A DNA stretch of 19,319 nucleotides, taken from a virus. Where the stretch lies: the IMG/VR virus record IMGVR_UViG_3300045988_171920; one strand, written 5' to 3'. A model generated the notes under the pieces. The model saw nothing but the letters and a program-made list of their open reading frames with translations. It was not told the DNA's origin and did not search any database. The position numbers were made by a program, and so were the translations under genes. Below are positions 1 to 19,319 of this stretch, piece by piece (position 1 is the stretch's first letter; each line of letters opens with the position of its first letter).

Positions 1-76
1 TCCCTGTTTACAAAACTTCCCCACATGGTTACAATAACTACATGTTATTTAATCTAAACTAGGGCAGAAGATTTTC
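1..76. repeat. Left inverted terminal repeat (76 bp)
   Basis: nt 1-76 equal the reverse complement of 19244-19319 with one mismatch (nt 56 vs nt 19264). Identity stops at nt 77. Confidence 0.95.
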
Positions 77-1346: not shown

Positions 1347-1510
1347 AATTGTAGTTTATAATACGTTGAATAATAATGCTACAAATACGTACCAAGGTGA
1401 AGAGCCTGTATTTGTAGGGTCGAAAGTGGTATTTCCGTTGTTAACATTTATAAATTGCATTTTTATTGAGTACCCAACGCACTACAAGGTGCATATTTGG
1501 GTATTCTATT
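1347..1510 (+). ncRNA. Highly structured leader or candidate non-coding RNA upstream of the scaffold gene
   Basis: A perfect 10-bp helix (1379-1388/1408-1417). A bipartite 10+4 bp hairpin (1468-1477/1497-1506 and 1479-1482/1489-1492). The region is locally more GC-rich by eye. No convincing ORF. Confidence 0.35.
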
Positions 1511-1538
1511 AAGAATTAATAAATTAAAAGGAGGAATA

Positions 1539-1814
1539 ATGATGGCATTTGAAAATTTGGAACAAGCTAACGATTACCAATTAAAAGCTGAAAAAGAAAT
1601 CGCAGATTTAAAGCAACAACTAGAAAGTCAAAAATCAGTTTTATCAGAAAAAGATGAAACAATTAAATCATATGATGAGCAAGTTAAGAAATTAAAAATT
1701 AAAAATTATGAATTATTTGAACAAGTTTCATCTAGTCCCGAACAAAATAAGTCTAAACCTCAAGATGCTCAACCTAAAATGAGTTATCAAGAGTTTTTAA
1801 ATAAAGTATTATAG
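1539..1814 (+). CDS. Scaffolding protein (phi29 gp7-like coiled coil)
   Basis: ~91 aa, acidic, coiled-coil, immediately upstream of the capsid gene. SD AAAGGAGG at 1527-1534 precedes ATGATG at 1539/1542. The track's TTG start at 1497 is judged less likely. Confidence 0.65.
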   Translation: MMAFENLEQANDYQLKAEKEIADLKQQLESQKSVLSEKDETIKSYDEQVKKLKIKNYELFEQVSSSPEQNKSKPQDAQPKMSYQEFLNKVL

Positions 1815-1829
1815 GAGAGTGATTATATT

Positions 1830-2873
1830 ATGGCATTAGACAACGTTACGTTTGCAAGTATGGTTAGTGATTTAGCAAGTCAAGAATATAAAGACAGAGT
1901 ACCAGTAGCAACACAAGATAACATTGGAAATATTGAAGAAATTATTTCTACTTATCCAACTGCAAAAAATGAGTTTATTAGTGTTTTAACAAATCAAGTT
2001 GCAAAGCAATTATTTTTTAGTAAAGCTTATGAAAATCCGTATAAGTTATTTAACAGAGGTATGCTACCATATGGTAAATCAATAGAGTCTATCTTTGTTG
2101 ACATTATTAAAGGTAAACAAAGAACTCACGAAACAGACACAACTAATTTAGCTAGTGATTTATTAGCAAGAGAAAATCCTAACGTAAAGGTTGAATATTA
2201 CTCTGAAAATTTCAGACACCAATATAAAACAACTATTACTGATGAGGAATTAAAAGGTGCGTTTAGGGCAGAAAACGGATTAAGTTCTATGACTGGTAGA
2301 ATATTACAAGCACCATTAACTTCAATCGAATATGATATGCAAGAAATGGTACTTCATGCTTTACCCGAATTAAAAGGTGGCAAGGCTACTATTAATAAAA
2401 CTGCATATACCGCAATGACCGAAGAAGAAAAAGCAAAAGTATTAGTTAAGACTATAAAGTCACAAGTTATTAAAATGGGATTCTTAAATAACAAACACAA
2501 TGGACAAGGGGTAATGACTTTCTCAAGACCTCAAGACCTTGTTGTTTTCCTTGACCCCGACATGATGGCAAATATTGATGTTGAACTATTAGCACAAGCA
2601 TTCAATATTGATAAGGCAGAAGTTCCACTTCATGTTTTACCAGTTCCACAATTTACTAAGAGAACAGGAACAGGAGAAGAAGCAACTTATGCAGAAGATA
2701 CAGATTGCTTAGCTATTATTTGTGATAAAGACGCAATACAAATTTATGAAACATTAAACAGTTCAGAAACATTCAGAAACCCACAGGGAATATACACAAA
2801 TGTATTCTTCAACAGATGGGGCTTAATGTCAGCTTGTAACTTTGCTAATGTTTGTAGAATAGTAACAGAATAA
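1830..2873 (+). CDS. Major capsid protein
   Basis: 347 aa ORF between the scaffold and tail genes (phi29 gp8 position). Strong SD, followed by a strong terminator. Called by synteny, not by a recognised motif. Confidence 0.7.
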   Translation: MALDNVTFASMVSDLASQEYKDRVPVATQDNIGNIEEIISTYPTAKNEFISVLTNQVAKQLFFSKAYENPYKLFNRGMLPYGKSIESIFVDIIKGKQRTHETDTTNLASDLLARENPNVKVEYYSENFRHQYKTTITDEELKGAFRAENGLSSMTGRILQAPLTSIEYDMQEMVLHALPELKGGKATINKTAYTAMTEEEKAKVLVKTIKSQVIKMGFLNNKHNGQGVMTFSRPQDLVVFLDPDMMANIDVELLAQAFNIDKAEVPLHVLPVPQFTKRTGTGEEATYAEDTDCLAIICDKDAIQIYETLNSSETFRNPQGIYTNVFFNRWGLMSACNFANVCRIVTE

Positions 2874-2878
2874 AAATT

Positions 2879-2902
2879 GGAGGTGTACAAACCTCCTTTT
2901 TT
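2879..2902 (+). terminator. Rho-independent terminator
   Basis: GGAGGT (2879-2884) pairs with ACCTCC (2891-2896), followed by TTTTTT. Confidence 0.8.
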
Positions 2903-2912
2903 GTCGTATATG
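2882..2912 (+). promoter_or_regulatory. Candidate late promoter GGTGTAC-N16-CGTATATG
   Basis: GTGTAC at 2883-2888, 16-nt spacer, CGTAT at 2905-2909. It overlaps the terminator hairpin, so the spacing could reflect terminator geometry. Confidence 0.25.
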
Positions 2913-2934
2913 AAAAAGGAAAGGAAGTGAATTT

Positions 2935-4494
2935 ATGGCAAGACAAAGTACAATTTATTTATTCAATTGTTGGTTTTTAGATGTTGGTCATAATCATACA
3001 GTAAACTTTAACAATGAAACTAATCAATTGAATTTCTTCATGAATTATTTACAGTTTAGAATTGATAATTGCACATATTTAAGAAAAGAAAGAACTTTAA
3101 AAGTTCCAAAATATATTGATGAACTTGCATTATGCAATTATTGTGCATTTCAAAATTCAGTAGATGGTAAGATGGAATACTTTTTTATTTTAAATAAATC
3201 TTATCTATCAGAAAATGTAACAGAACTTACTTTAAAATTAGATGTAATACAAACTTATTGGTTTCAAATGAATTTTACAAAAATTAAATCACATATAGAT
3301 AGACAACATTTGTGGCGTTGGAATCAAGATGGGACAGTTGCAGATTATAATATGTTAGAAAATGAAGATTTTGAAATAGGAGAATATATATTACAAAATA
3401 GAACTCCACTTTATGATTATGAAAATAAAGGCGGTTATATTGTTACTAGTTCTGATAAATTATCTATAAAATATAGTGGTGACAGTGGAAGTGGCGGTAG
3501 TTCGACAAATCAATCAAACTTATATAAGGATAAGTTAGTATCAGCAAACGGTTTTTGGTTTATTAAACAAGTTGAGGGTTTTAGTTCTACCCCTTATAAT
3601 TTAGGTGATGGAACATATACAATAGGGTATGGAACTACAAGTGAGTTTGACTCTGAGCATTATAATCAACTTGCACCCGAGTGTACAGAGGAACAGGCAA
3701 GTAATGTGTTAGCAGAAAGTTTAAAGAAAAATTATTCAACATATGTTTATGATACATTTGTTAATTATGGTTTTGACATGAATAAAATGAAGCAACAACA
3801 TTTTGACGCATTTGTTAGTTTTTACTATAATACTGGTAGTTTATCAAGTAAAACAATTTTCACTAAATATATTAATGGAGATAGTCTTGAGAGTATTGCT
3901 GAGGTTTGGAAAACTACTAATATAATGACAGGGACTCAATTTGAGGAGGGGTTAAGAAATAGAAGAAAAGCTGAAGTAAATATATTTTTAAATGGAGAAT
4001 ACTACTATAAAGATATACCAAATTTAAACGGTGGAACAGTTACAGATAATGACGGAAAAGGCTACATTCCGGTTATGTTTAATAAATATGATACTCCAAC
4101 AAGTACAATAAGACAAAATATTATAAATAGTGCAAAGAAATTGATTGGATTACCTTATGTTTATGGTGGAAATTATCCTCCTTTGGGTAATAGTGCAGGT
4201 ACTGATTGTTCGGGTTTATGCCAATGGGCATATCATGATAATGGTATAAACATATCAAGAACAACATATACGCAAATTAAAGAGGGAAAAGAAGTAACTT
4301 TAGAAGAATGTAAACCGGGTGATTTAGTATTTACTAGAGGTACTAGTGATAATGGTCATGTTGTTATGTTCCATAGTTTTAATAGTGATGGTACAATTCA
4401 TGTAATTGAAGCTAAACAAACAGGTACAAATATAATGGAAAACGATAGAACACCTAATAGCGATTATCGTTATAGAAATTTATTAGGGGATTAA
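2935..4494 (+). CDS. Tail-associated cell-wall hydrolase: tail-knob (gp9-like) N-terminal domain + GH24-type lysozyme + NlpC/P60 peptidase
   Basis: aa 1-160 resemble the phi29 gp9 N-terminus from memory (..YCAFQN..G..YFFI.., LDVIQTYWF, RQHLWRWNQDGT). The middle has FIKQVEGFSSTPYNLGDGTYTIGYGTT (lysozyme). The C-terminus has GLPYVYGG...GTDCSGLCQWAY...GDLVF...GHVVMF (NlpC/P60 Cys/His). Confidence 0.8.
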   Translation: MARQSTIYLFNCWFLDVGHNHTVNFNNETNQLNFFMNYLQFRIDNCTYLRKERTLKVPKYIDELALCNYCAFQNSVDGKMEYFFILNKSYLSENVTELTLKLDVIQTYWFQMNFTKIKSHIDRQHLWRWNQDGTVADYNMLENEDFEIGEYILQNRTPLYDYENKGGYIVTSSDKLSIKYSGDSGSGGSSTNQSNLYKDKLVSANGFWFIKQVEGFSSTPYNLGDGTYTIGYGTTSEFDSEHYNQLAPECTEEQASNVLAESLKKNYSTYVYDTFVNYGFDMNKMKQQHFDAFVSFYYNTGSLSSKTIFTKYINGDSLESIAEVWKTTNIMTGTQFEEGLRNRRKAEVNIFLNGEYYYKDIPNLNGGTVTDNDGKGYIPVMFNKYDTPTSTIRQNIINSAKKLIGLPYVYGGNYPPLGNSAGTDCSGLCQWAYHDNGINISRTTYTQIKEGKEVTLEECKPGDLVFTRGTSDNGHVVMFHSFNSDGTIHVIEAKQTGTNIMENDRTPNSDYRYRNLLGD

Positions 4495-4506
4495 GGAGGG
4501 ATAACA

Positions 4507-5757
4507 ATGGCAACAACTTCAAAAAATGAGCCGGATAGTACAATAATAAATAATATTACAGTTGGTTTATATTATTATTATGTTCCCAAGAACGGGGCAA
4601 GTGAAGCAACTTATTTGGGTTTTGTAAATACAATTGAAAGTGTAACTTATAATCCTTTTATAGATGAAGCTGATATATCAGACGTACGTAAAGCAATATT
4701 TGATACTGCACGTTATGGCAGTCCCGACGGGCAAATTCCATATGTAAAAAGAATTTGCTCATTTGATAAAATTAATTATCAACTAGGTAATACTCAACAA
4801 ATTTATCCTAATAAATCTAATTATAGTTATGATTTTGAGCCTAGAGTTTTATGTTATCCTTTTAGATACTTTTTAATCACTGATTATTCTTCTAATCCAA
4901 TGCTAATTAAACCCGAAAGAATAGAAGATAATGGGTCAAATCAATTTAAGGTTATGGTAAAAACTACTGCTATTAGTTCAGAAAGTAAGTATAATATTTA
5001 TGTTGATAATTATAAATATGATGATGAGGGAAACTTAGAGGGAATGTGCAATAGTACTGCATTAATGTTACCTGTTACTTCATCAGCATATAGCCAATTT
5101 TTAGCAACTTCCGCAAGTTCTTTTAATCAATCAGTTACTAATGCTTTACTAGAAAATGATTTAACATTAAAGCATAACACACAATCAAATAATATGAATT
5201 TTGCACAAAGCACTACAAATAATGCATTGTCTGCAATAGGGAATTTATTAAGTTTAAATTTTGGAGGATTAGCAAGTAATGCAAGTAACCTAGCTTTTGG
5301 ATATATGCAAAACCAATTGGCTAATACTCAAGCAAATGAAAATTCACAATTAAATGAACATAACATTATTAGCATGAAGAATGCAAAAGTTAATGATATG
5401 CTAACAACTCCTAATAGTATTAAAACCGCAGGGAATGACACACTTTTTAATTTAATTAATAGCAATCAAAGAGTTGATTTATTAGAATATAGATGTAATG
5501 TGCAACAAATGTCAAAGGCTCAAGAATATTTTAAACGTTATGGCTACAAAGTTAATGGCTATGATTATATAAATTTAACATGCAGAAAACATTATAATTA
5601 TGTAAAAACTAATGTGTGTAATATTGTAGGTGCAAGAATACCACATGAATACTTAGACGAAATTAAGAGTATTTTTAATAATGGTATTACAGTATGGCAC
5701 ATGGACAACGAGGGAACAACAATGTTTGAATATGATAATAACGCGGAGGTGTATTAG
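4507..5757 (+). CDS. Tail knob / distal tube protein (C-terminal two-thirds of a phi29 gp9-like protein)
   Basis: EPRVLCYPFRYFLITDY, SSAYSQFLA and the C-terminal YFKRYGYKVN...RKHYNYVKT...IFNNGITVWHMDN match remembered gp9 segments (ESKLMMYPYCVTEITDF; FFHKYGYKIN..FNYVQT..IFDNGITLWHTDN). Confidence 0.8.
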   Translation: MATTSKNEPDSTIINNITVGLYYYYVPKNGASEATYLGFVNTIESVTYNPFIDEADISDVRKAIFDTARYGSPDGQIPYVKRICSFDKINYQLGNTQQIYPNKSNYSYDFEPRVLCYPFRYFLITDYSSNPMLIKPERIEDNGSNQFKVMVKTTAISSESKYNIYVDNYKYDDEGNLEGMCNSTALMLPVTSSAYSQFLATSASSFNQSVTNALLENDLTLKHNTQSNNMNFAQSTTNNALSAIGNLLSLNFGGLASNASNLAFGYMQNQLANTQANENSQLNEHNIISMKNAKVNDMLTTPNSIKTAGNDTLFNLINSNQRVDLLEYRCNVQQMSKAQEYFKRYGYKVNGYDYINLTCRKHYNYVKTNVCNIVGARIPHEYLDEIKSIFNNGITVWHMDNEGTTMFEYDNNAEVY

Positions 5758-5758
5758 A

Positions 5759-6637
5759 ATGGGAATGACTCATAAACAAAAACAGGGATTAATGCAAGAA
5801 AGTAGAAATCAACATTTTAATTTATTATATAATAAGTATAAATTATTAGCTTTAAATATGTTTACATGGGAAAACCTACCCGAAACAATTAAACCAAGAT
5901 ATATTGAAAAATCTTTATTTCATTTTGGAAAAGCCATATTTGTTGATGATGATAATTTAGGCTTGATATGTGTTCCATGTGAATTTGCAGAAGAAATGAA
6001 TGTAAATTTTGAACACACAAAAGTAATTACTAGTGGCTATAATTATATTAATACTATTCCATATTTACATTCTAGTTGGAAAGATAAATGTCAATTAATT
6101 CTTAATAATGATTTAGGCTTTGGGACAGAGGATTATGTAATAGATTATGCAACAAAAATGATGGAGGTTGAAAGATGTATCAGAGCAAATATTAATCATC
6201 AAAAATTCCCTTGGTTTATCGAAACAACTCCCAACAACAAACAGACCATGCAAAAATTATTTCAAGAAGTCGATAATTTAGAGCCAGTTATATTTGGTAA
6301 TAAAGACTTAAATATTGAAAATGCAAGTGCAATAATGACTACAACTCCATACGTTGCTGATAAACTTAATGAATATAAATATGAACTTGAAAGAGAAATA
6401 TTAACATTCTTTGGATTAAATAATTCCTTTGAGAAAAAAGAAAGATTACTTGTTGATGAAGTTAACTCTAACAATGATTATATTAACAGAAATGTGGATA
6501 TCATGTTTGCTAATAGACAATCTGCATGTGAAGAACTTAACCAAAAATTTGGGCTTAATGTTAAAGTAACTAAAAACAATAATTTTGAAAATAGTTATGA
6601 CCAAGACGAAGAAGAGGAGGGAGAAATAGATGAGTAA
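5759..6637 (+). CDS. Portal / upper collar connector protein (phi29 gp10-like)
   Basis: MFTWENLPETIKPRYIEKSLFHFG, PYVADKLNEYK, FFGLNNSFEKKERLLVDEVNSNND and ELNQKFGLNVKV align with remembered gp10. Start moved to ATG 5759, behind SD GGAGGTG at 5745-5751. Confidence 0.9.
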   Translation: MGMTHKQKQGLMQESRNQHFNLLYNKYKLLALNMFTWENLPETIKPRYIEKSLFHFGKAIFVDDDNLGLICVPCEFAEEMNVNFEHTKVITSGYNYINTIPYLHSSWKDKCQLILNNDLGFGTEDYVIDYATKMMEVERCIRANINHQKFPWFIETTPNNKQTMQKLFQEVDNLEPVIFGNKDLNIENASAIMTTTPYVADKLNEYKYELEREILTFFGLNNSFEKKERLLVDEVNSNNDYINRNVDIMFANRQSACEELNQKFGLNVKVTKNNNFENSYDQDEEEEGEIDE

Positions 6638-7256
6638 AAATACAATAGAAATAAATCAATTAGTAAATGATTTAGATTTTAATCTATTTGATTTTGAATA
6701 CAATCTTTACGATAATGAATTAAAGGAAGTTTTCGAGAAAAAATTTATTGACCATTTCTATTTTTATGAAATTGGATTAACTCCTATTGCTAGATTTAAA
6801 AAGGCGTTGCAAATTAAATTAAATGATATTTACCCATATTATAAGCAACTTTATCAAACTGAATTAAGATGTAATGACATTGATTTTATGCTAAATAAAG
6901 ATTTAAAAGAATCTTATACAAGGGAATTAACAGGAAATAGTTCAGTAAATCAAAGTTCAACAAGTACAAGTAACGATACTAGTTTAAATATTAATAATGA
7001 TACTCCACAAAATAAAATTGATGATTTAGACAATTATATGACTAGTGCAAGTAAGAATACAGACAACTCAACAATGAGCAGTAATGGTACAAATAGTGCT
7101 GAAAACAATTCAACAGAAATATATAGTTTAATTTCTCAAGGTAATATTGGCGTAACTTCTTCCGCTGAATTATTAGAAAAGTGGAGAAATGTATTAATAA
7201 ATATTGACCAATTGATTTTTGAAGAATGCAACGATTTATTTATGTTAATTTACTAG
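6630..7256 (+). CDS. Lower collar / head-tail adaptor protein (phi29 gp11 position)
   Basis: Directly follows the portal gene and overlaps it by 8 nt. SD GAGGAGGG. 208 aa with an N/S/T-rich middle. Called mainly by synteny. Confidence 0.6.
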   Translation: MSKNTIEINQLVNDLDFNLFDFEYNLYDNELKEVFEKKFIDHFYFYEIGLTPIARFKKALQIKLNDIYPYYKQLYQTELRCNDIDFMLNKDLKESYTRELTGNSSVNQSSTSTSNDTSLNINNDTPQNKIDDLDNYMTSASKNTDNSTMSSNGTNSAENNSTEIYSLISQGNIGVTSSAELLEKWRNVLINIDQLIFEECNDLFMLIY

Positions 7257-7281
7257 GGCTTGTTTACTCAAGTCCTTTTTT
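7256..7281 (+). terminator. Rho-independent terminator
   Basis: GGGCTTG (7256-7262) pairs with CAAGTCC (7269-7275) with one G-U pair, followed by TTTTTT. Confidence 0.7.
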
Positions 7282-7292
7282 GTCGTTAGTAA
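7261..7292 (+). promoter_or_regulatory. Candidate late promoter TGTTTAC-N16-CGTTAGTAATAATT
   Basis: TGTTTAC at 7261-7267 (in the terminator loop), 16-nt spacer, CGT at 7284-7286, then AATAATT directly before the fibre RBS. Confidence 0.3.
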
Positions 7293-7312
7293 TAATTAGG
7301 AGGTGCATGTGC

Positions 7313-9331
7313 ATGAGTATTGATAAGATAAGAAATATTGGGCTTGATAAATTAGTTACACAAGTTTACGATTTTGATAGTTTAACAACAGATGAATTAA
7401 TGTGCAAATTTGCTCAAAAAATAAATATCATTATTGAACACTTTAAATATTTAGATGACAGATGTGATAATAGTGAAAAAAATCTAGAGTTAAAATTACA
7501 ATATTTATTAGGTCAAGGTTTAGAGGAACAAGTTGCAAAAAGATTATTAGAATTAATAAATAAGGGAACTATCGGGAAATTAATTAATGAAACTTTATTA
7601 AAAGATATTAACGATAAAGTTGATAATTTTAAAGTTGAAGTTAATGAAGAATTTGAACAAAAATTGGATAAAAATGGAATAGTTACAATGGCTAACATGG
7701 GGCAAGATGTTAAAGAAGCTTTTACAGGTGGAGCAGTTGCAGTTGTTGGTAGAAATAGTGTTTTAACTGAAAATATAGTTGATAACCAAGTAAATCAATA
7801 TAAAGTGGATTTTATAAATGAAGATAATAACTTATTAAGAAACGAGGGTCTTTTATTTAATAAAAATATTGATGTTAATTCGGGATTGACAATTGAAAGT
7901 AATGGATATGTAACTACCGATTTTATAAGCGTAGATTCAAGTACATTATATACGTTTAATTTTTATAAACTTGCACCTAATAATCCTGGGGCAACAGTTA
8001 TTTATTATAATTCTAATAAAACTATAATTTCAAATGAATTTGTAACTGAATTTAGTTTTACTACGTCAGAAAATTGTAAATATATTAGAATTAGTTTTCC
8101 TAACTACGATATTATAAAAATTAATAATACATTTTTATCAAAAGATACTACAAAAACTTCTCCTAAACTAAAAAATGAATATTTAGATGAAAGTTTTTTG
8201 AGTAATAATTTTGAAAATAATTTTGCTAAAAAAAATATAGAGCCTTTAAACTGTACTTTTTTCGATAAGGTTATTAATATAAAAGATATTGCACAGTTTG
8301 AAAAAAATAAAACTGTAAACCCTACTACTGGTGGTTTTGAAAGCTTTAGTGGTAGAACTATTTTAGGCTTTTATGATGTAAAATATGTTGACGCAATTAA
8401 TGTTAATACTGATACTACTATGTTTCTATATGATGAAAATAAAAATATATTAAGTTCTGTAAATGGTGGAAATATAATTAAAAGTGGAACAGTTATTCCT
8501 ATAACTCATAATACAAGTAATAATGATACTAGGTTTATTGTTATAGTTGCTCTTACTGTAGCCGATAGTGTTTTAAACGAAATAGTAATAAATCCATCAA
8601 TGTATATCTATGATGGCGTTGATAGATATTATTTAAAAGATAGTGTGATAAAAAGTTTAAGTAATTCTTCATTTTATAAAAATAAAAAAATAACTTGTTT
8701 TGGTGATAGTATAACTGCTCAAAATCAATGGCAACCTTGGGTGGCACAATACTTTAATTGTACAATGGTAAACAAAGGTGTTGGGGGTACAACTGTTTTC
8801 AATAATGGTAATAAAGAAGTTATAGAGGGAGAATTACGAGATAGTTGGATGTGTTCTGATGATAGAATTAATTTAATACCTACTGATTCAGATGTTATAC
8901 TTGTATTTGGAGGTCATAACGATTTTGGTTATAATAATTTAGAAATGGGTGTTTTAGGTGATGGAAACTTAATAGATAGCACATTTAAAAGTGCATATAG
9001 TTTAATGCTTAAAAAATTAGTAAATAAATTCCCTAACGCTCTTATTATAACTATGACTCCAGTTGGCGGTAGAACTGAAACAGAGAAAGGTAATAGTGAC
9101 AAACAATACTATATAAGAGATTTATGCATGACAGATTTTGCAAATGCCGTAAAAGAAGTTAGTGCATATTACGGTATTCCTTGTATAGACATAAACGGTG
9201 AAAGTCGTATTAGTACACTAAATCACGATACTTATATAGCTGATGTTATTCACGCTAATTCAGATGGTGGAAAATTAATAGCAAACGTCGTAATAAATGG
9301 AATGAAAAGATTTGAGCCAATAATATTTTAA
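7313..9331 (+). CDS. Tail fibre / appendage protein with C-terminal SGNH (GDSL) hydrolase domain
   Basis: Start at ATG 7313, 9 nt after GGAGG at 7299-7303. The N-terminus is a coiled fibre-shoulder type region (MANMGQDVKEAFTGGAVAVVG). The C-terminus carries the SGNH blocks CFGDSITA (GDS at 8702-8710), GVGGTT, GGHNDF and DVIHANSDG. Confidence 0.8.
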   Translation: MSIDKIRNIGLDKLVTQVYDFDSLTTDELMCKFAQKINIIIEHFKYLDDRCDNSEKNLELKLQYLLGQGLEEQVAKRLLELINKGTIGKLINETLLKDINDKVDNFKVEVNEEFEQKLDKNGIVTMANMGQDVKEAFTGGAVAVVGRNSVLTENIVDNQVNQYKVDFINEDNNLLRNEGLLFNKNIDVNSGLTIESNGYVTTDFISVDSSTLYTFNFYKLAPNNPGATVIYYNSNKTIISNEFVTEFSFTTSENCKYIRISFPNYDIIKINNTFLSKDTTKTSPKLKNEYLDESFLSNNFENNFAKKNIEPLNCTFFDKVINIKDIAQFEKNKTVNPTTGGFESFSGRTILGFYDVKYVDAINVNTDTTMFLYDENKNILSSVNGGNIIKSGTVIPITHNTSNNDTRFIVIVALTVADSVLNEIVINPSMYIYDGVDRYYLKDSVIKSLSNSSFYKNKKITCFGDSITAQNQWQPWVAQYFNCTMVNKGVGGTTVFNNGNKEVIEGELRDSWMCSDDRINLIPTDSDVILVFGGHNDFGYNNLEMGVLGDGNLIDSTFKSAYSLMLKKLVNKFPNALIITMTPVGGRTETEKGNSDKQYYIRDLCMTDFANAVKEVSAYYGIPCIDINGESRISTLNHDTYIADVIHANSDGGKLIANVVINGMKRFEPIIF

Positions 9332-9932: not shown

Positions 9933-10616
9933 ATGAGTTATTCACAAATTAATATAAGTAGTGGGCATAGTATTAATTGTCAAGGTGCAAGTGATATAAT
10001 AAACGAAGTTAGTGAAGCAAGAAAAGTAGTTGATAGAATTTACGAAATGTGTAAAGCTATGGGCATTGAGGTCTACAAGTATCATGATACATCTAGTTCA
10101 AGTTCACAAAACTTAGCTAATATTGCAAACTGGCATAACAGATTTAAAGATGGAATAGATATATCAATCCATTTTAATTGTTATCAACTTACAACAAATA
10201 GTATGGGAACAGAGGTTTGTTATTATTCTCAATCACAATTAGCTAATCAAGTATCATCAGCAATTAGTAGAGCAAGTGGGTTAAAAGATAGAGGAGGAAA
10301 AGAAAGAAAAGGGCTTTATGTTTTACGACACACAAACAAGCCTATGTTATTAATTGAAGTTTGTTTTTGTGATTCTTCTTATGATGTACAAAAATACAGA
10401 GAAAACTTTGATGGTATTTGTTCTGCAATTATAGAAGCACTTACTGGCAAGGTATATATGTCTAGACCAGTTAGTGTGCCAAATCAAAACACAAACAATA
10501 ATTCAAATATTGGTAAGATTTATCGTGTTCAAGTTGGAGCTTATAAAATTAAATCAAATGCAGAAGAAATGCAACAAAAATTAAAGAAATTAGGTATTGA
10601 TAGTATAATTGTATAA
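9933..10616 (+). CDS. Endolysin: N-acetylmuramoyl-L-alanine amidase (Amidase_3, CD27L-like) with a C-terminal SPOR-like segment
   Basis: SSGHS..CQGA..NE, ISIHFN, GTEVCYYS and DRG.KE...LYVLR...P.LLIEVCFCD fit the Amidase_3 pattern. The C-terminal YRVQVGAYKIKSNAEEMQQKLKKLG looks like a SPOR half-repeat. Confidence 0.85.
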   Translation: MSYSQINISSGHSINCQGASDIINEVSEARKVVDRIYEMCKAMGIEVYKYHDTSSSSSQNLANIANWHNRFKDGIDISIHFNCYQLTTNSMGTEVCYYSQSQLANQVSSAISRASGLKDRGGKERKGLYVLRHTNKPMLLIEVCFCDSSYDVQKYRENFDGICSAIIEALTGKVYMSRPVSVPNQNTNNNSNIGKIYRVQVGAYKIKSNAEEMQQKLKKLGIDSIIV

Positions 10617-10785: not shown

Positions 10786-11808
10786 ATGAAAGGAAGTGTT
10801 TTGTTCGTGGCTTGGTATAATTATGATAGAATTAATAGTTATAATGCAACTTTAAATTTTATACTAACAAACAGAGGTTTTGGTAAAACATTTGGTGCTA
10901 AGTGCAATGTAATAAAAAAGTTTTTAAAGAAAGGTGAACAATTTGTTTATGTAAGAAGATACAAAACAGAACTTAATGACATTCACAAATTTTTTGATTC
11001 ACCCGATTTAAGAAAAAAGTTTAAAACTCATACGTTTGAGGTAAAAGGAAAAACATTCTTTATAGATGGAAAAATTGCAGGTTATGCAATTGCTCTTTCC
11101 ACTTCCCAAAAATTAAAGTCAGTCGATTATCCTTTTGTAACTACAATTATCTTTGACGAGTTTATAGTTGATAAAGGTTGTATAAGATATCTAACAAATG
11201 AAGTTGACGTGTTTTTAGATTTATATGAAACAATAGCGAGAAAAAGAAATAATGTTAAAGCATATTTATTAGCTAATAATGTTTCTATAGTAAATCCATA
11301 CTTCACTTACTTTGATGTAACGCCCAAAAAGACAGAGCGATTTACAATTGCACGTGATGGTGAATTAGTTATTGAAATGTGTACAGATACTGTATTTATT
11401 AATGAAAAACTAGAAACAAAATTCGGTAAACTTATTAAAGGGACAAAATATGCAGACTATTCAATTTATAATAATTCATTGAGAGATAGTGAAGTGTTTA
11501 TAGAAAAAAGACCAAAGCGAAATACTTCTCCTGTTATGAGTATAGTTTTTAATGGTGAAAGGGCTATGATATGGCTTGACTATAAAACAGGTATATTTTA
11601 CTGTGATGACAAATACATGAAAACTTGTAATGAATATGTATTAAGTTGTGAAGACCATAATCCAAATACATTGTTAAATGCAAGTGGAATTAATCTTAAT
11701 ATGTTAAAACAATTAATTTCATATTTCCAAGTTGGAAGAGTAAGATTTTCAGACCAAAATATTAAACATTTAATGTATGATATATTTAGAAGTTTAGGGG
11801 TAAAATAA
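10786..11808 (+). CDS. DNA encapsidation (packaging) ATPase, phi29 gp16-like
   Basis: LNFILTNRGFGKTF (Walker A), GEQFVYVRRYK, FFIDGKIAGYAI, TIIFDEF (Walker B), NVSIVNPYF and SEVFIEKR align closely with remembered gp16. ATG 10786 has no SD. The true start may be TTG 10801 or GTG 10807, behind AAAGGAAG. Confidence 0.93.
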   Translation: MKGSVLFVAWYNYDRINSYNATLNFILTNRGFGKTFGAKCNVIKKFLKKGEQFVYVRRYKTELNDIHKFFDSPDLRKKFKTHTFEVKGKTFFIDGKIAGYAIALSTSQKLKSVDYPFVTTIIFDEFIVDKGCIRYLTNEVDVFLDLYETIARKRNNVKAYLLANNVSIVNPYFTYFDVTPKKTERFTIARDGELVIEMCTDTVFINEKLETKFGKLIKGTKYADYSIYNNSLRDSEVFIEKRPKRNTSPVMSIVFNGERAMIWLDYKTGIFYCDDKYMKTCNEYVLSCEDHNPNTLLNASGINLNMLKQLISYFQVGRVRFSDQNIKHLMYDIFRSLGVK

Positions 11809-11833: not shown

Positions 11834-12397
11834 TTATATTATTTCTCTTATTTCTTTTTCGTGTTCTCTTAATCTCTTCCTTATCCTTGAAAGAATTGTT
11901 TTTGTTCCATTATATTTTGCTCCAAATTTATTACTTATTTCTTCAATGGTATAACCTTGGCAATACATTTTGAAATATTCTTTGTGTCTTTCGTTTTTAA
12001 TAAATTCGCAAACTTTATCAATTGTTTCGTTTATATCTTCGTATTCATCTTCAGATTGAATAACGTTGTGTAAACTCATTTCATTTTCATTTTTATAACC
12101 ATCAATTTCTTGATCTAAAAATACTAAATTATCATAAACTTTTCTTTTTTCTCTTCTTTCAACTTTTAAAACATCATAAACCCCATTTTTTATTACTTTT
12201 GCTATGAATGTATTTAACCCTGCGATTTCTTCATCATATTGATTTATAGCAAATGCGACTTTTGCTTCACATATTTGAAGTACATCTTCAAATTCTACTC
12301 TATCATGATATTTTACTAAAATACTATTATAATATTTATAAGTCATACCCTTTAAATATCCATCACCATATTGATTAATATAATCTTCATATTTCAT
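11834..12397 (-). CDS. Sigma-70 family RNA polymerase sigma factor (small, ECF/TcdR-like size)
   Basis: 187 aa. A region-2-like segment (EFEDVLQICEAKVAFAINQYDE...NTFIAKVIKNGVYDVLKVERREKR) and a region-4 HTH (KEYFKMYCQGYTIEEISNKFGAKYNGTKTILSRIRKRLRE). It is the last gene of the replication operon. Confidence 0.75.
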   Translation of the reverse strand: MKYEDYINQYGDGYLKGMTYKYYNSILVKYHDRVEFEDVLQICEAKVAFAINQYDEEIAGLNTFIAKVIKNGVYDVLKVERREKRKVYDNLVFLDQEIDGYKNENEMSLHNVIQSEDEYEDINETIDKVCEFIKNERHKEYFKMYCQGYTIEEISNKFGAKYNGTKTILSRIRKRLREHEKEIREII

Positions 12398-16211: not shown

Positions 16212-16238
16212 AAAAAAGGACAGATATTTAATCTGCCC
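16212..16238 (-). terminator. Rho-independent terminator (- strand)
   Basis: On the - strand: GGGCAG...CTGTCC hairpin (16238-16218) followed by TTTTTT (16217-16212). It overlaps the TAG stop of the 90-aa gene. Confidence 0.7.
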
Positions 16239-16510
16239 TAATTGTTCATTAATTCGTTATATCGTGTTATCTTACTTATATAAATACTATCAAAATCTTC
16301 GGGTATTATTTCAAGCTTTTCATTTAACTTTTCTAAGCAGATATATACGTCAACCATTTCCTCAAGTACCATATTATCTATTTCTTCTTTACTTGCTCTT
16401 AATGTTACATCACCACTAATCCAACGATTAAGTTTGGATAAAGCTTGTATAAGTTCAGAGCATTCCTCTATTGTAATTGAATTAACGTCTTGCAAACTTT
16501 CTTTAATCAT
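16238..16510 (-). CDS. MazG-like all-alpha nucleotide pyrophosphohydrolase, 90 aa
   Basis: Two acidic helix motifs typical of small MazG/NTP-PPase proteins: IEECSELIQAL and VLEEMVDVYICL (EExxE ... EExxD). Confidence 0.55.
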   Translation of the reverse strand: MIKESLQDVNSITIEECSELIQALSKLNRWISGDVTLRASKEEIDNMVLEEMVDVYICLEKLNEKLEIIPEDFDSIYISKITRYNELMNN

Positions 16511-19243: not shown

Positions 19244-19319
19244 GAAAATCTTCTGCCCTAGTTAAGATTAAATAACATGTAGTTATTGTAACCATGTGGG
19301 GAAGTTTTGTAAACAGGGA
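19244..19319. repeat. Right inverted terminal repeat (76 bp)
   Basis: Reverse complement of nt 1-76. The window ends exactly at the repeat boundary. Confidence 0.95.

What the first reader, a model, noticed from the sequence alone, without database searches (positions are those of the whole stretch)
2935..5757. Tail-knob gene apparently split, with its N-terminal piece fused to lysozyme and NlpC/P60 domains
- From my memory of phi29 gp9 (~599 aa), its N-terminal ~150 aa (..YIMFQNADYGNKWFYAF.., FEIDVLQTWMF, REHVKLWNDDGT) align with aa 1-160 of the 519-aa ORF (..YCAFQNSVDGKMEYFFI.., LKLDVIQTYWF, RQHLWRWNQDGT).
- The C-terminal ~275 aa of gp9 (ESKLMMYPYCVTEITDF ... FFHKYGYKINRV ... FNYVQT ... 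IFDNGITLWHTDN) align with aa ~110-416 of the next ORF.
- Here the gp9 middle region is replaced by a stop and restart (4494/4507, with its own SD).
- The N-terminal fragment also carries a GH24-like lysozyme and an NlpC/P60 endopeptidase.
- phi29 keeps its tail lysin (gp13) as a separate gene after the appendage gene. No such gene follows the fibre gene here.
- This would place two wall-degrading activities directly on the knob as a two-polypeptide assembly.
Basis: partly seen in the sequence, partly recalled or inferred. Interest (0 to 1): 0.65.

Follow-up and report, generated by a model that had tools for sequence, protein, structure and literature searches.

The report
Split tail knob carrying wall-degrading enzymes
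In this small phi29-like phage the tail-knob protein is made from two adjacent genes, and the first piece also carries two cell-wall-cutting enzymes; this is real, but the same layout is already described in Clostridium perfringens phages, so only the second enzyme is new.

Summary
ORF A (2935-4494, 519 aa) consists of the phi29 gp9 N-terminal knob domain (aa 6-183 = gp9 10-190), a Gly/Ser linker, a GH24 lysozyme and an NlpC/P60 endopeptidase. ORF B (4507-5757, 416 aa) is the rest of the knob (aa 108-413 = gp9 321-597) and includes the hydrophobic channel loop. TAA, a Shine-Dalgarno site and ATG separate the two ORFs.

The stop is not an assembly error. It is present in all 30 related loci examined, and the A-to-B reading-frame relation differs even among relatives more than 90% identical. 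That also rules out conserved readthrough or frameshifting.

The arrangement is not new. All C. perfringens Guelinviridae encode the homologous pair, a "lysozyme-peptidase" (tail domain + lysozyme + M23) followed by a "tail protein". Both were detected as separate virion proteins in 2012. Here NlpC/P60 replaces M23.

A wider census shows the knob N-piece carries many different lysins (GH24, GH73, M23, NlpC/P60). Single-chain N-GH24-C knob proteins also exist, so the lysin module is an insertion in the knob's N-to-C connector, and in some lineages the gene was split after it.

Most likely mechanism: a knob built from both proteins (six copies of each is inferred) that displays the peptidoglycan hydrolases for entry, taking the place of a separate gp13-type tail lysin.

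Verdict: a modest variant of a known kind.

The parts
2879..2905 (+). Terminator-like hairpin plus T-run between the major capsid gene (ends 2873) and ORF A. It is the only such site in 1400-6000.
   Evidence: GGAGGTGTACAAACCTCC TTTTTTG. No terminator-like site, and promoter-like sites no more frequent than in shuffled controls, lie between ORF A and ORF B, so the two are probably co-transcribed.
2935..4494 (+). ORF A, 519 aa: the knob N-piece carrying two peptidoglycan hydrolases.
2935..3483 (+). ORF A aa 1-183: gp9-type N-terminal beta-sandwich domain plus the start of the N-to-C connector.
   Evidence: Pfam Caud_tail_N. hhalign A 6-183 = gp9 10-190, probability 99.8. Foldseek top hit 5fb4. 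Homology to the GH73-carrying relative L032 ends at aa 179.
3484..3534 (+). ORF A aa 184-200: Gly/Ser-rich flexible linker (DSGSGGSSTNQSNLYKD).
   Evidence: Sequence. Falls within the low-pLDDT segment 141-193 and the residues just after it. An equivalent Gly-rich linker is present in phiCPV4 gp20.
3535..4002 (+). ORF A aa 201-356: GH24 (T4/lambda-type) lysozyme domain. Glu214 and Thr229 are invariant.
   Evidence: Pfam PF00959 E 2e-18. PDB lysozyme/endolysin hits. Invariant columns.
4105..4491 (+). ORF A aa 391-519: NlpC/P60 cysteine endopeptidase domain. Cys425, His475 and Glu492 are invariant.
   Evidence: Pfam PF00877 E 4e-18. PDB NlpC/P60 hits E 2.5e-12. Foldseek TM up to 0.80 normalised to the target. 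Invariant columns.
4492..4509 (+). Junction: TAA stop of A (4492-4494), Shine-Dalgarno AAGGAGGG (4493-4500) overlapping the stop, ATG of B (4507-4509). The two ORFs are in the same frame here, by chance.
   Evidence: The junction is conserved, with variable spacing and frame, in 30 related loci.
4507..5757 (+). ORF B, 416 aa: the knob C-piece.
   Evidence: End-to-end homology to the phiCPV4 'tail protein' gp19.
4507..4827 (+). ORF B aa 1-107: family-specific N-terminal region occupying the position of gp9 191-320.
   Evidence: No hit to gp9. Covered by the phrog_2248 profile. Conserved in phiCPV4 gp19. Present inside the single-chain proteins P0273 and P0327 after the lysozyme.
5116..5406 (+). 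ORF B aa 204-300: long helical hairpin containing the most hydrophobic stretch (NALSAIGNLLSLNFGGLAS, aa 239-257). It is the counterpart of the gp9 L-loop and the Andhra channel loop.
   Evidence: Predicted helices 204-248 and 253-300 (low-confidence model). Hydropathy maximum. Aligned with gp9 ~403-480.
5407..5754 (+). ORF B aa 301-416: conserved C-terminal domain (YGYKVN, NYVKT, GITVWH motifs). [quoted passage not shown]
   Evidence: The structural role is taken from the Andhra gp12 description (PMC9710869).

Best explanation
ORF A and ORF B together replace the single tail-knob protein gp9 of phi29.

The N-terminal ~180 residues of ORF A form the proximal beta-sandwich domain that docks on the lower-collar tube. 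ORF B supplies the distal domain, the hydrophobic membrane-active channel loop, and the C-terminal domain that folds back to complete the N-domain sheet. The two chains are therefore held together by complementation across the chain break.

The break lies in, or just after, the extended connector that runs from the N-domain toward the distal part of the knob. At that point ORF A continues through a flexible Gly/Ser linker into a GH24 muramidase and an NlpC/P60 endopeptidase.

The knob would thus display a glycan-cutting and a peptide-cutting enzyme on each protomer, probably six copies of each. These digest peptidoglycan locally during entry, so the knob can reach the membrane, where the loops of ORF B form the DNA channel. 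This module does the job that the separate tail lysin gp13 does in phi29, and the genome has no gp13 gene.

ORF B is translated from its own Shine-Dalgarno site, which overlaps the stop codon of ORF A (translational coupling), not by readthrough.

Shown: the homologies, the domain content, the conserved split, and the existence of fused single-chain forms. Inferred: the 6+6 stoichiometry, where the enzymes sit, and their activity.
For: Homology: A 6-183 = gp9 10-190 and B 108-413 = gp9 321-597. The gp9-like profile phrog_2248 is covered by A (positions 17-214) and B (positions 191-582) with almost no gap or overlap. Foldseek's best PDB hit for the A model is phi29 gp9. A and B are unrelated to each other, so this is a split and not a duplication.

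The split is real and ancient. A stop plus a separate start is present in all 30 related loci. Frame relations are 0, +1 and +2 in 8, 11 and 11 loci and differ between relatives more than 90% identical. A-type homologues are all ~505-528 aa and B-type homologues ~412-433 aa across more than 120 clusters each.

Rosetta-stone evidence: two uninterrupted single-chain ORFs carry N-domain + GH24 + the whole of B (P0273, 812 aa; P0327, 850 aa, whose residues 461-835 align with B 4-405 at E 9e-50).

Experimental support from a relative: both homologous proteins (59 and 46 kDa) were identified by mass spectrometry in purified phiCP7R virions (PMC3362512).

Structural logic from solved knobs: the phi29 gp9 N-terminal barrel binds the lower collar (PMC6542822). 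[quoted passage not shown]

Catalytic residues are invariant in 43 homologues: Glu214 and Thr229; Cys425, His475 and Glu492.

A separate lysis cassette exists (small hydrophobic ORFs plus an Amidase_3-SPOR endolysin at 9933-10616) and there is no gp13-like gene.
Against: There is no direct structural or biochemical evidence for this phage. The AlphaFold monomer model of ORF B failed (pLDDT 41), and no multimer prediction could be run, so the A-B interface, the stoichiometry and the position of the enzymes are inferred.

ORF B aa 1-107 could not be matched to phi29 gp9 191-320, so its structural equivalence is unproven.

The T4 lysozyme Asp20 equivalent is not aligned (Leu223). Asp225 lies two residues further on and is not invariant, so muramidase activity is likely but not certain.

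If the enzymes are anchored at the proximal N-domain, their reach to the wall at the distal tip depends on a linker of only ~17-50 residues.
Confidence: 0.8

Rival explanations
1. The stop at 4492-4494 is a sequencing or assembly error, or a recent pseudogenising mutation, and the real product is one ~940-aa protein.
For: A and B are in the same reading frame in the window, separated only by TAA plus 12 nt. Genuine single-chain N-GH24-C knob proteins exist elsewhere.
Against: All 30 related loci from independent samples and isolates have a stop at the same place followed by an SD and a start codon. More than 120 clusters of A-type and of B-type proteins have the split lengths. In cultured phage phiCP7R the two proteins migrate and are identified separately.
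Confidence: 0.01
2. Programmed stop-codon readthrough or frameshifting produces an A-B fusion alongside the separate proteins.
For: The in-frame arrangement in the window and in 8 relatives.
Against: Frame relations of 0, +1 and +2 occur in about equal numbers (8, 11, 11). Relatives 91-97% identical to the window have a 13-14-nt spacer that puts B in another frame. Some relatives have overlapping ATGA or TAAAATG junctions. The stop is TAA or TAG, there is no conserved slippery or structured context, and a strong SD sits 7 nt before the ATG.
Confidence: 0.03
3. ORF A is a free-standing tail-tip or accessory lysin (a gp13 analogue) that uses a borrowed gp9-like domain only as a docking module, while ORF B alone forms the knob.
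For: The 2012 authors interpreted the homologous 59-kDa protein as a gp13 analogue. Tail lysins in Andhra and P68 are separate low-copy tip proteins.
Against: ORF B has no N-domain of its own. In phi29 that domain makes the contact with the lower collar, and in Andhra it is completed by the C-terminal domain. Single-chain N-GH24-B proteins show that the N-domain and B belong to one protomer. The A and B genes are always adjacent and translationally coupled.
Confidence: 0.1
4. ORF A is not a virion protein at all but a second endolysin used for lysis from within.
For: It contains two classic endolysin catalytic domains, and its closest UniProt relative is annotated simply as 'Lysozyme'.
Against: It sits between the capsid and portal genes rather than in the lysis cassette. 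It has a structural N-domain and no cell-wall-binding domain. A dedicated Amidase_3-SPOR endolysin with holin-like ORFs is present. The homologue is a virion component in phiCP7R.
Confidence: 0.03

Closest known systems
Guelinviridae (Clostridium perfringens podoviruses phiCPV4, phiCP7R, phiZP2, CpV1, phi24R, CPS2 and others): 'lysozyme-peptidase' plus 'tail protein' gene pair
   Same: Same gene order (capsid, A, B, then portal and collar). Same split point. A aligns over aa 9-426 (31% identity), covering the N-domain, the Gly-rich linker, GH24 and the post-lysozyme segment. B aligns end to end (probability 100, E 2e-46). GenBank notes and PMC3362512 already describe 'tail domain + lysozyme + peptidase'. 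Both proteins are virion components.
   Different: The C-terminal endopeptidase is M23 there and NlpC/P60 here. Overall identity is only ~30%, and the DNA polymerase is also ~30% identical. The window's clade is known only from metagenomes. Some Guelinviridae place a holin or endolysin between B and the portal gene.
phi29 gp9 tail knob plus gp13 tail lysin (Salasmaviridae)
   Same: The N-domain, the C-terminal two-thirds and the hydrophobic channel loop of gp9 are all present. The pairing of a glycosidase with an endopeptidase for entry is the same idea as gp13.
   Different: gp9 is one 599-aa chain, and gp13 is a separate gene after gp12. gp13 has Phage_lysozyme2 + M23, which are not homologous at sequence level to the ORF A enzymes. 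gp13 is thought to sit at the distal tip, whereas here the enzymes are covalently attached to the knob N-piece.
Two-gene tail knobs of phi29-like phages of Gram-negative hosts (Phanie, Astrid, DU_PP_III; Evseev et al. 2024, PMC11476376)
   Same: The knob is encoded by two genes, an N-part that sits nearer the head and a C-part. AlphaFold3 models of 6+6 complexes show beta-sheets shared between the two chains.
   Different: There the N-piece is small and bare, and the extra domains are Ig-like and sit on the C-piece. Here the extra domains are enzymes on the C-terminus of the N-piece. That review attributes the split to the Gram-negative lineage only.
Tail-tip lysins of staphylococcal picoviruses (Andhra gp10, P68 gp11: glycosyl hydrolase + CHAP)
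   Same: A two-enzyme virion lysin physically coupled to the knob.
   Different: It is a separate dimeric protein that plugs the distal end of an unsplit knob, together with a small tip protein. It has no gp9 N-domain.
Single-chain knob proteins with an internal lysozyme (metagenomic P0273 on L045 and P0327 on L046)
   Same: N-domain, Gly-rich linker, GH24, post-lysozyme segment, then the complete B sequence.
   Different: One polypeptide, with no stop and no second endopeptidase domain. These were found here and, as far as I could find, are not described in the literature.

Membership tests
phi29 gp9-type tail knob protein | N-terminal tail-tube-like beta-sandwich domain (Pfam Caud_tail_N) | tested here: met
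   Present on ORF A: 28.6 bits against a cutoff of 27; hhalign probability 99.8; Foldseek top hit 5fb4.
phi29 gp9-type tail knob protein | C-terminal knob body (Pfam phi29_gp9_C), including the conserved C-terminal domain | tested here: met
   Present on ORF B: E 1e-23; 5fb4 E 2.8e-19; hhalign probability 99.9.
phi29 gp9-type tail knob protein | Long hydrophobic, helical channel (L) loop for membrane penetration | tested here: inconclusive
   ORF B 204-300 is predicted helical and holds the hydropathy maximum at 239-257. It aligns positionally with gp9 403-480. However, the model is low-confidence and the loop sequence is poorly conserved.
phi29 gp9-type tail knob protein | N and C parts in one polypeptide of ~500-650 aa | tested here: not met
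   Two ORFs separated by a conserved stop.
phi29 gp9-type tail knob protein | Hexameric tube attached to the lower collar | not testable with these tools
   No multimer prediction was available. The ORF B monomer model failed.
Guelinviridae lysozyme-peptidase / tail protein pair | A-protein consists of knob N-domain + linker + GH24 lysozyme | tested here: met
   A 9-426 aligns with phiCPV4 gp20 at 31% identity, E 7e-46.
Guelinviridae lysozyme-peptidase / tail protein pair | C-terminal Peptidase_M23 domain on the A-protein | tested here: not met
   NlpC/P60 (PF00877) occupies that position and there is no M23 hit. Homology to gp20 ends at about aa 390-426.
Guelinviridae lysozyme-peptidase / tail protein pair | Immediately followed by a ~400-430-aa B-protein lacking the N-domain | tested here: met
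   ORF B 13-415 = phiCPV4 gp19 16-398, probability 100. The adjacency holds in all loci.
Guelinviridae lysozyme-peptidase / tail protein pair | Both proteins present in the virion | not testable with these tools
   Shown only for phiCP7R by mass spectrometry.
phi29 gp13-type tail lysin | Phage_lysozyme2 + M23 in a separate protein encoded after the appendage gene | tested here: not met
   No BLASTP similarity between ORF A and gp13. The Pfam families differ. No such gene lies after 7226-9331.
Two-gene knob of Gram-negative phi29-like phages | Small bare N-piece plus a C-piece carrying N-terminal Ig-like domains | tested here: not met
   The N-piece carries 330 aa of enzymes, and ORF B has no Ig-like domain hit. 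Only the principle of a two-chain knob is shared.

The most novel reading that the evidence does not exclude
The connector between the N-domain and the body of the picovirus knob protein is a recurrent insertion site for exchangeable cell-wall hydrolase cassettes. The cassettes seen are GH24, GH73, M23 and NlpC/P60 in at least eight combinations, as single-chain insertions, as split genes, or as C-terminal additions. Phages of this type would then have dispensed with a separate tail-tip lysin complex altogether. In phi29 and Andhra that tip complex is thought to plug the knob and couple wall penetration to DNA release, so these phages would need a different gating mechanism. Six enzyme pairs per knob would act as the wall drill.
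Probability: 0.35. Interest if true: 0.5.

Novelty: new variant of a known kind. Interest (0 to 1): 0.3.

Why it matters
For annotation, the ~515-aa "lysozyme" or "peptidase" and the ~415-aa "tail protein" of these abundant uncultivated phages should be read together as one tail knob. The first is a virion-associated entry lysin, not an endolysin.

For phage biology, the split and fused forms together show where the knob fold tolerates insertion. They also show that entry enzymes are swapped there as cassettes, which is a plausible route of host adaptation.

For applications, virion lysins with GH24 + NlpC/P60 from low-GC Firmicutes phages are candidate enzybiotics.

None of this overturns current understanding. 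The principle was visible in the C. perfringens phages in 2012.

Tried and rejected
- Megablast of the region against GenBank phages found nothing. The relatives are only protein-level.
- BLASTP of ORF A against phi29 gp13 showed no similarity. The enzymes are analogues of gp13, not orthologues.
- phmmer of ORF A against PDB sequences did not retrieve phi29 gp9, only Andhra gp12 at E 7e-4. Profile and fold searches were needed.
- AlphaFold2 of the ORF B monomer gave pLDDT 41, which is unusable, so no fold search was run on it.
- Three attempts to match ORF B aa 1-107 to the gp9 middle region all aligned only from B ~94-108 onward: the A2 profile against the PDB, against a 7-member alignment of unsplit knobs, and against the short C. 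innocuum-phage knob.
- A-B paralogy is rejected.
- The assembly-error and readthrough or frameshift hypotheses are rejected by the locus survey.
- The Rfam scan for a pRNA or any other RNA gave no hits.
- The promoter scan is no better than shuffled controls.
- The host could not be determined.
Full report
**What the window is**

The 19,319-bp window is a complete linear phi29-like genome. It has 26.7% G+C and inverted terminal repeats of about 76 nt, 55 of them exact.

Late genes lie on the + strand:
- major capsid protein, 1830-2873
- ORF A, 2935-4494
- ORF B, 4507-5757
- portal
- lower collar, 6630-7256
- appendage with a C-terminal GDSL/SGNH hydrolase, 7226-9331
- small hydrophobic ORFs
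- Amidase_3+SPOR endolysin, 9933-10616
- gp16 packaging ATPase, 10786-11808

Early genes, including a protein-primed DNA polymerase, lie on the - strand.

The closest cultured relatives are the C. perfringens podoviruses (Guelinviridae), at only about 30% amino-acid identity. This holds for the polymerase and for ORFs A and B. There is no nucleotide-level match in GenBank phages. Many near-identical contigs exist in metagenomes.

**Checking the observation**

ORF A (519 aa) has Caud_tail_N (aa 19-113), Phage_lysozyme/GH24 (211-347) and NLPC_P60 (405-500). ORF B (416 aa) has phi29_gp9_C.

I compared both ORFs with the real phi29 gp9 sequence taken from NC_011048.
- ORF A 25-134 aligns with gp9 29-141 at 31% identity (E 4e-10), through exactly the recalled motifs.
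- ORF B 53-403 aligns with gp9 282-590 at 24% identity (E 1e-19).

Profile-profile comparison used family alignments: 43 A-type sequences, 29 B-type sequences and 7 unsplit knobs.
- A 6-183 = gp9 10-190, probability 99.8.
- B 108-413 = gp9 321-597, probability 99.9.

A gp9-like PHROG profile of 590 positions is tiled by A (positions 17-214) and B (positions 191-582).

An AlphaFold2 model of ORF A has mean pLDDT 79.8. It is confident for the N-domain, the lysozyme and the NlpC/P60 domain, and disordered over 111-125 and 141-193. Its best Foldseek hits in the PDB are phi29 gp9 crystal structures (E 1.3e-7), followed by NlpC/P60 and GH24 structures.

The junction is GAT-TAA, with AAGGAGGG overlapping the stop and ATG seven bases after the GGAGG core.

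No gp13-like gene follows the appendage gene. ORF A shows no BLASTP similarity to gp13.

**Is the stop real?**

I collected 30 related loci that carry both genes. They come from IMG/VR, Logan and ENA contigs and from four cultured C. perfringens phages. A-protein identity to the window ranges from 97% down to about 28%.

All 30 have a stop codon at the end of the A gene, followed by a separate start for B. This is usually an SD with a 1-15-nt spacer, and sometimes an overlapping ATGA.

The A-to-B frame relation is 0, +1 and +2 in 8, 11 and 11 loci. Relatives 91-97% identical to the window have a 13- or 14-nt spacer instead of 12, which puts B in a different frame. The in-frame arrangement in the window is therefore coincidental, and conserved readthrough or frameshifting is excluded.

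Among more than 120 protein clusters each, A-type proteins are all about 505-528 aa and B-type proteins about 412-433 aa.

A and B show no similarity to each other. ORF B has no N-domain of its own.

A terminator-like hairpin follows the capsid gene (2879-2896). None lies between A and B.

**What was already known**

GenBank annotations of phiCPV4 and phi24R state that the protein upstream of the "tail protein" contains "PHA00380 tail protein; lysozyme_like; Peptidase_M23".

Volozhantsev et al. 2012 (PMC3362512) report several relevant points:
- They describe this 529-aa, 59-kDa protein as tail domain 1-150, lysozyme 200-350 and M23 400-500.
- They note that the adjacent gp9-like tail protein (399 aa) is much smaller than phi29 gp9.
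- They identify both as separate bands of purified phiCP7R virions by mass spectrometry.
- They propose that the 59-kDa protein acts like gp13.

ORF A aligns with phiCPV4 gp20 through the N-domain, a Gly-rich linker, GH24 and the post-lysozyme segment. The alignment runs over aa 9-426 at 31% identity and is lost where NlpC/P60 replaces M23. ORF B aligns end to end with gp19 (probability 100), including its first 107 residues. The split therefore predates the divergence of the two clades.

Two-gene knobs have also been discussed for phi29-like phages of Gram-negative hosts. In those, AlphaFold3 6+6 models show inter-chain beta-sheets (Evseev et al. 2024, PMC11476376). That review does not mention the Guelinviridae case.

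A UniProt/BFVD entry from a human-gut virome is 64% identical to ORF A over its full length and is annotated only as "Lysozyme".

**What the broader survey adds**

I searched ORF A residues 1-185 against 1.84 billion representative proteins. This gave 2,489 hits. I classified the best 150 with profiles built here and spot-checked them with Pfam.

About half are ordinary unsplit knobs. The rest are N-pieces carrying various cargoes:
- GH24 alone
- GH24 + NlpC/P60 (this window's type)
- NlpC/P60 + GH24
- GH24 + M23
- GH73 alone
- GH73 / NlpC/P60 combinations
- NlpC/P60 alone
- M23 alone
- nothing

In L032 the A protein is 46% identical to the window's over aa 3-179. It then switches to a GH73 glucosaminidase, while its B protein stays about 50% identical to the window's. 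The cargo is therefore exchanged at the linker.

Two proteins are single chains: P0273 (812 aa) and P0327 (850 aa). They contain the N-domain, a Gly-rich linker, GH24 and then the entire B sequence. P0327 residues 461-835 align with ORF B 4-405 (E 9e-50). Both were verified as uninterrupted ORFs on their contigs. One of those is a 15.6-kb picovirus contig on which the gene is followed by the portal gene.

These fused forms are Rosetta-stone evidence that the A N-domain and B are parts of one protomer. They also show that the lysin module is an insertion into the knob protein, not a replacement of its middle.

**Mechanism**

Two points come from solved structures.
- In phi29, the gp9 N-terminal barrel makes the contact with the lower-collar tube (PMC6542822).
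- In Andhra gp12, the chain leaves the N-terminal beta-sandwich by an extended connector to the distal domain and forms the internal channel loop. [quoted passage not shown]

Mapped onto this pair, the break lies at the connector (gp9 residue ~190). The ORF B C-terminal domain, which is its most conserved part, would complete the ORF A N-domain across chains.

ORF A then continues through a flexible linker into two enzymes whose putative catalytic residues are invariant in 43 homologues: Glu214 and Thr229; Cys425, His475 and Glu492. Assignment of these residues as catalytic is by analogy, using and general knowledge of GH24 and NlpC/P60 enzymes.

I conclude, with about 0.8 confidence, that the knob is built from both proteins (six of each is inferred). 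It would display a muramidase and a peptide-stem endopeptidase for wall penetration, with the hydrophobic helical loop of ORF B (aa 204-300) forming the membrane channel.

Stoichiometry, the location of the enzymes and their activity are inferred, not shown. The ORF B monomer model failed, and no multimer prediction was available.

**Verdict**

The feature is a distant, metagenome-only relative of a published arrangement, with NlpC/P60 swapped for M23. It is a new variant of a known kind and of modest interest.

The more interesting by-product is the general picture of the knob connector as an insertion site for lysin cassettes, with fused, split and C-terminal versions. As far as my literature searches went, that picture has not been laid out for Gram-positive picoviruses.

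Noticed in passing
L045 546-2984 (P0273) and L046 6001-8553 (P0327): Single-chain knob proteins of 812 and 850 aa: N-domain, Gly-rich linker, GH24 lysozyme, then the complete B-type sequence. Each is an uninterrupted ORF, and L046 is a 15.6-kb picovirus contig. They are the unsplit counterparts of the ORF A + ORF B pair.
   Followed up: partly
L032 3001-4083: A relative whose knob N-piece (46% identical to the window's over aa 3-179) carries a single GH73 glucosaminidase instead of GH24 + NlpC/P60, while its B protein is ~50% identical to the window's. The cargo is swapped exactly at the linker.
   Followed up: partly
Proteins P0338 and P0363: The knob N-domain sits at the C-terminal end (residues ~474-646) of 651-666-aa proteins. 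One also has a SpaA/prealbumin-like domain. This reversed architecture is unexplained.
   Followed up: no
Proteins P0300 and P0318: Unsplit knob proteins (~650 aa) with a Peptidase_M23 domain appended at the C-terminus. This is a third way of attaching a lysin to the knob.
   Followed up: no
window 1-76 and 19244-19319: Inverted terminal repeats of about 76 nt (55 exact, one mismatch, then 20 exact). This indicates a complete linear protein-primed genome. G+C is 26.7%.
   Followed up: partly
window 2879-2905: The only terminator-like hairpin with a T-run in 1400-6000. It sits directly after the major capsid gene and before ORF A, and could lower tail-gene transcription relative to the capsid gene.
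   Followed up: no
window 7226-9331: The appendage/fibre protein has a C-terminal GDSL/SGNH hydrolase domain (aa 489-687) in place of the pectate-lyase-type domain of the C. perfringens phages. It may be an esterase acting on a wall polymer.
   Followed up: no
window 5681-6637: The mechanical portal ORF overlaps ORF B by 77 nt. The likely real start is the ATG at 5759, two bases after the ORF B stop, preceded by GCGGAGG. That gives ~292 aa, close to the portals of relatives (287-289 aa).
   Followed up: partly
window 11834-12397 (- strand) and 16238-16510 (- strand): A sigma-factor-like protein (phrog_1740, E 4e-11) and a MazG-like NTP pyrophosphohydrolase (phrog_2245, E 3e-9) lie among the early genes. 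An SSB-like gene (640-1011) lies on the + strand at the left end.
   Followed up: no
window, whole: No Rfam family reached its threshold, so no phi29-type pRNA was detected, although a gp16-type packaging ATPase is present.
   Followed up: partly
L043 and L044 (Clostridium phages CI55P1 and CS229P2): These gut Clostridia picoviruses have short unsplit knobs (~500-510 aa, with the middle region much reduced) and a separate 'morphogenesis protein 1' gene upstream of the capsid gene. This is the alternative solution to the same problem.
   Followed up: no
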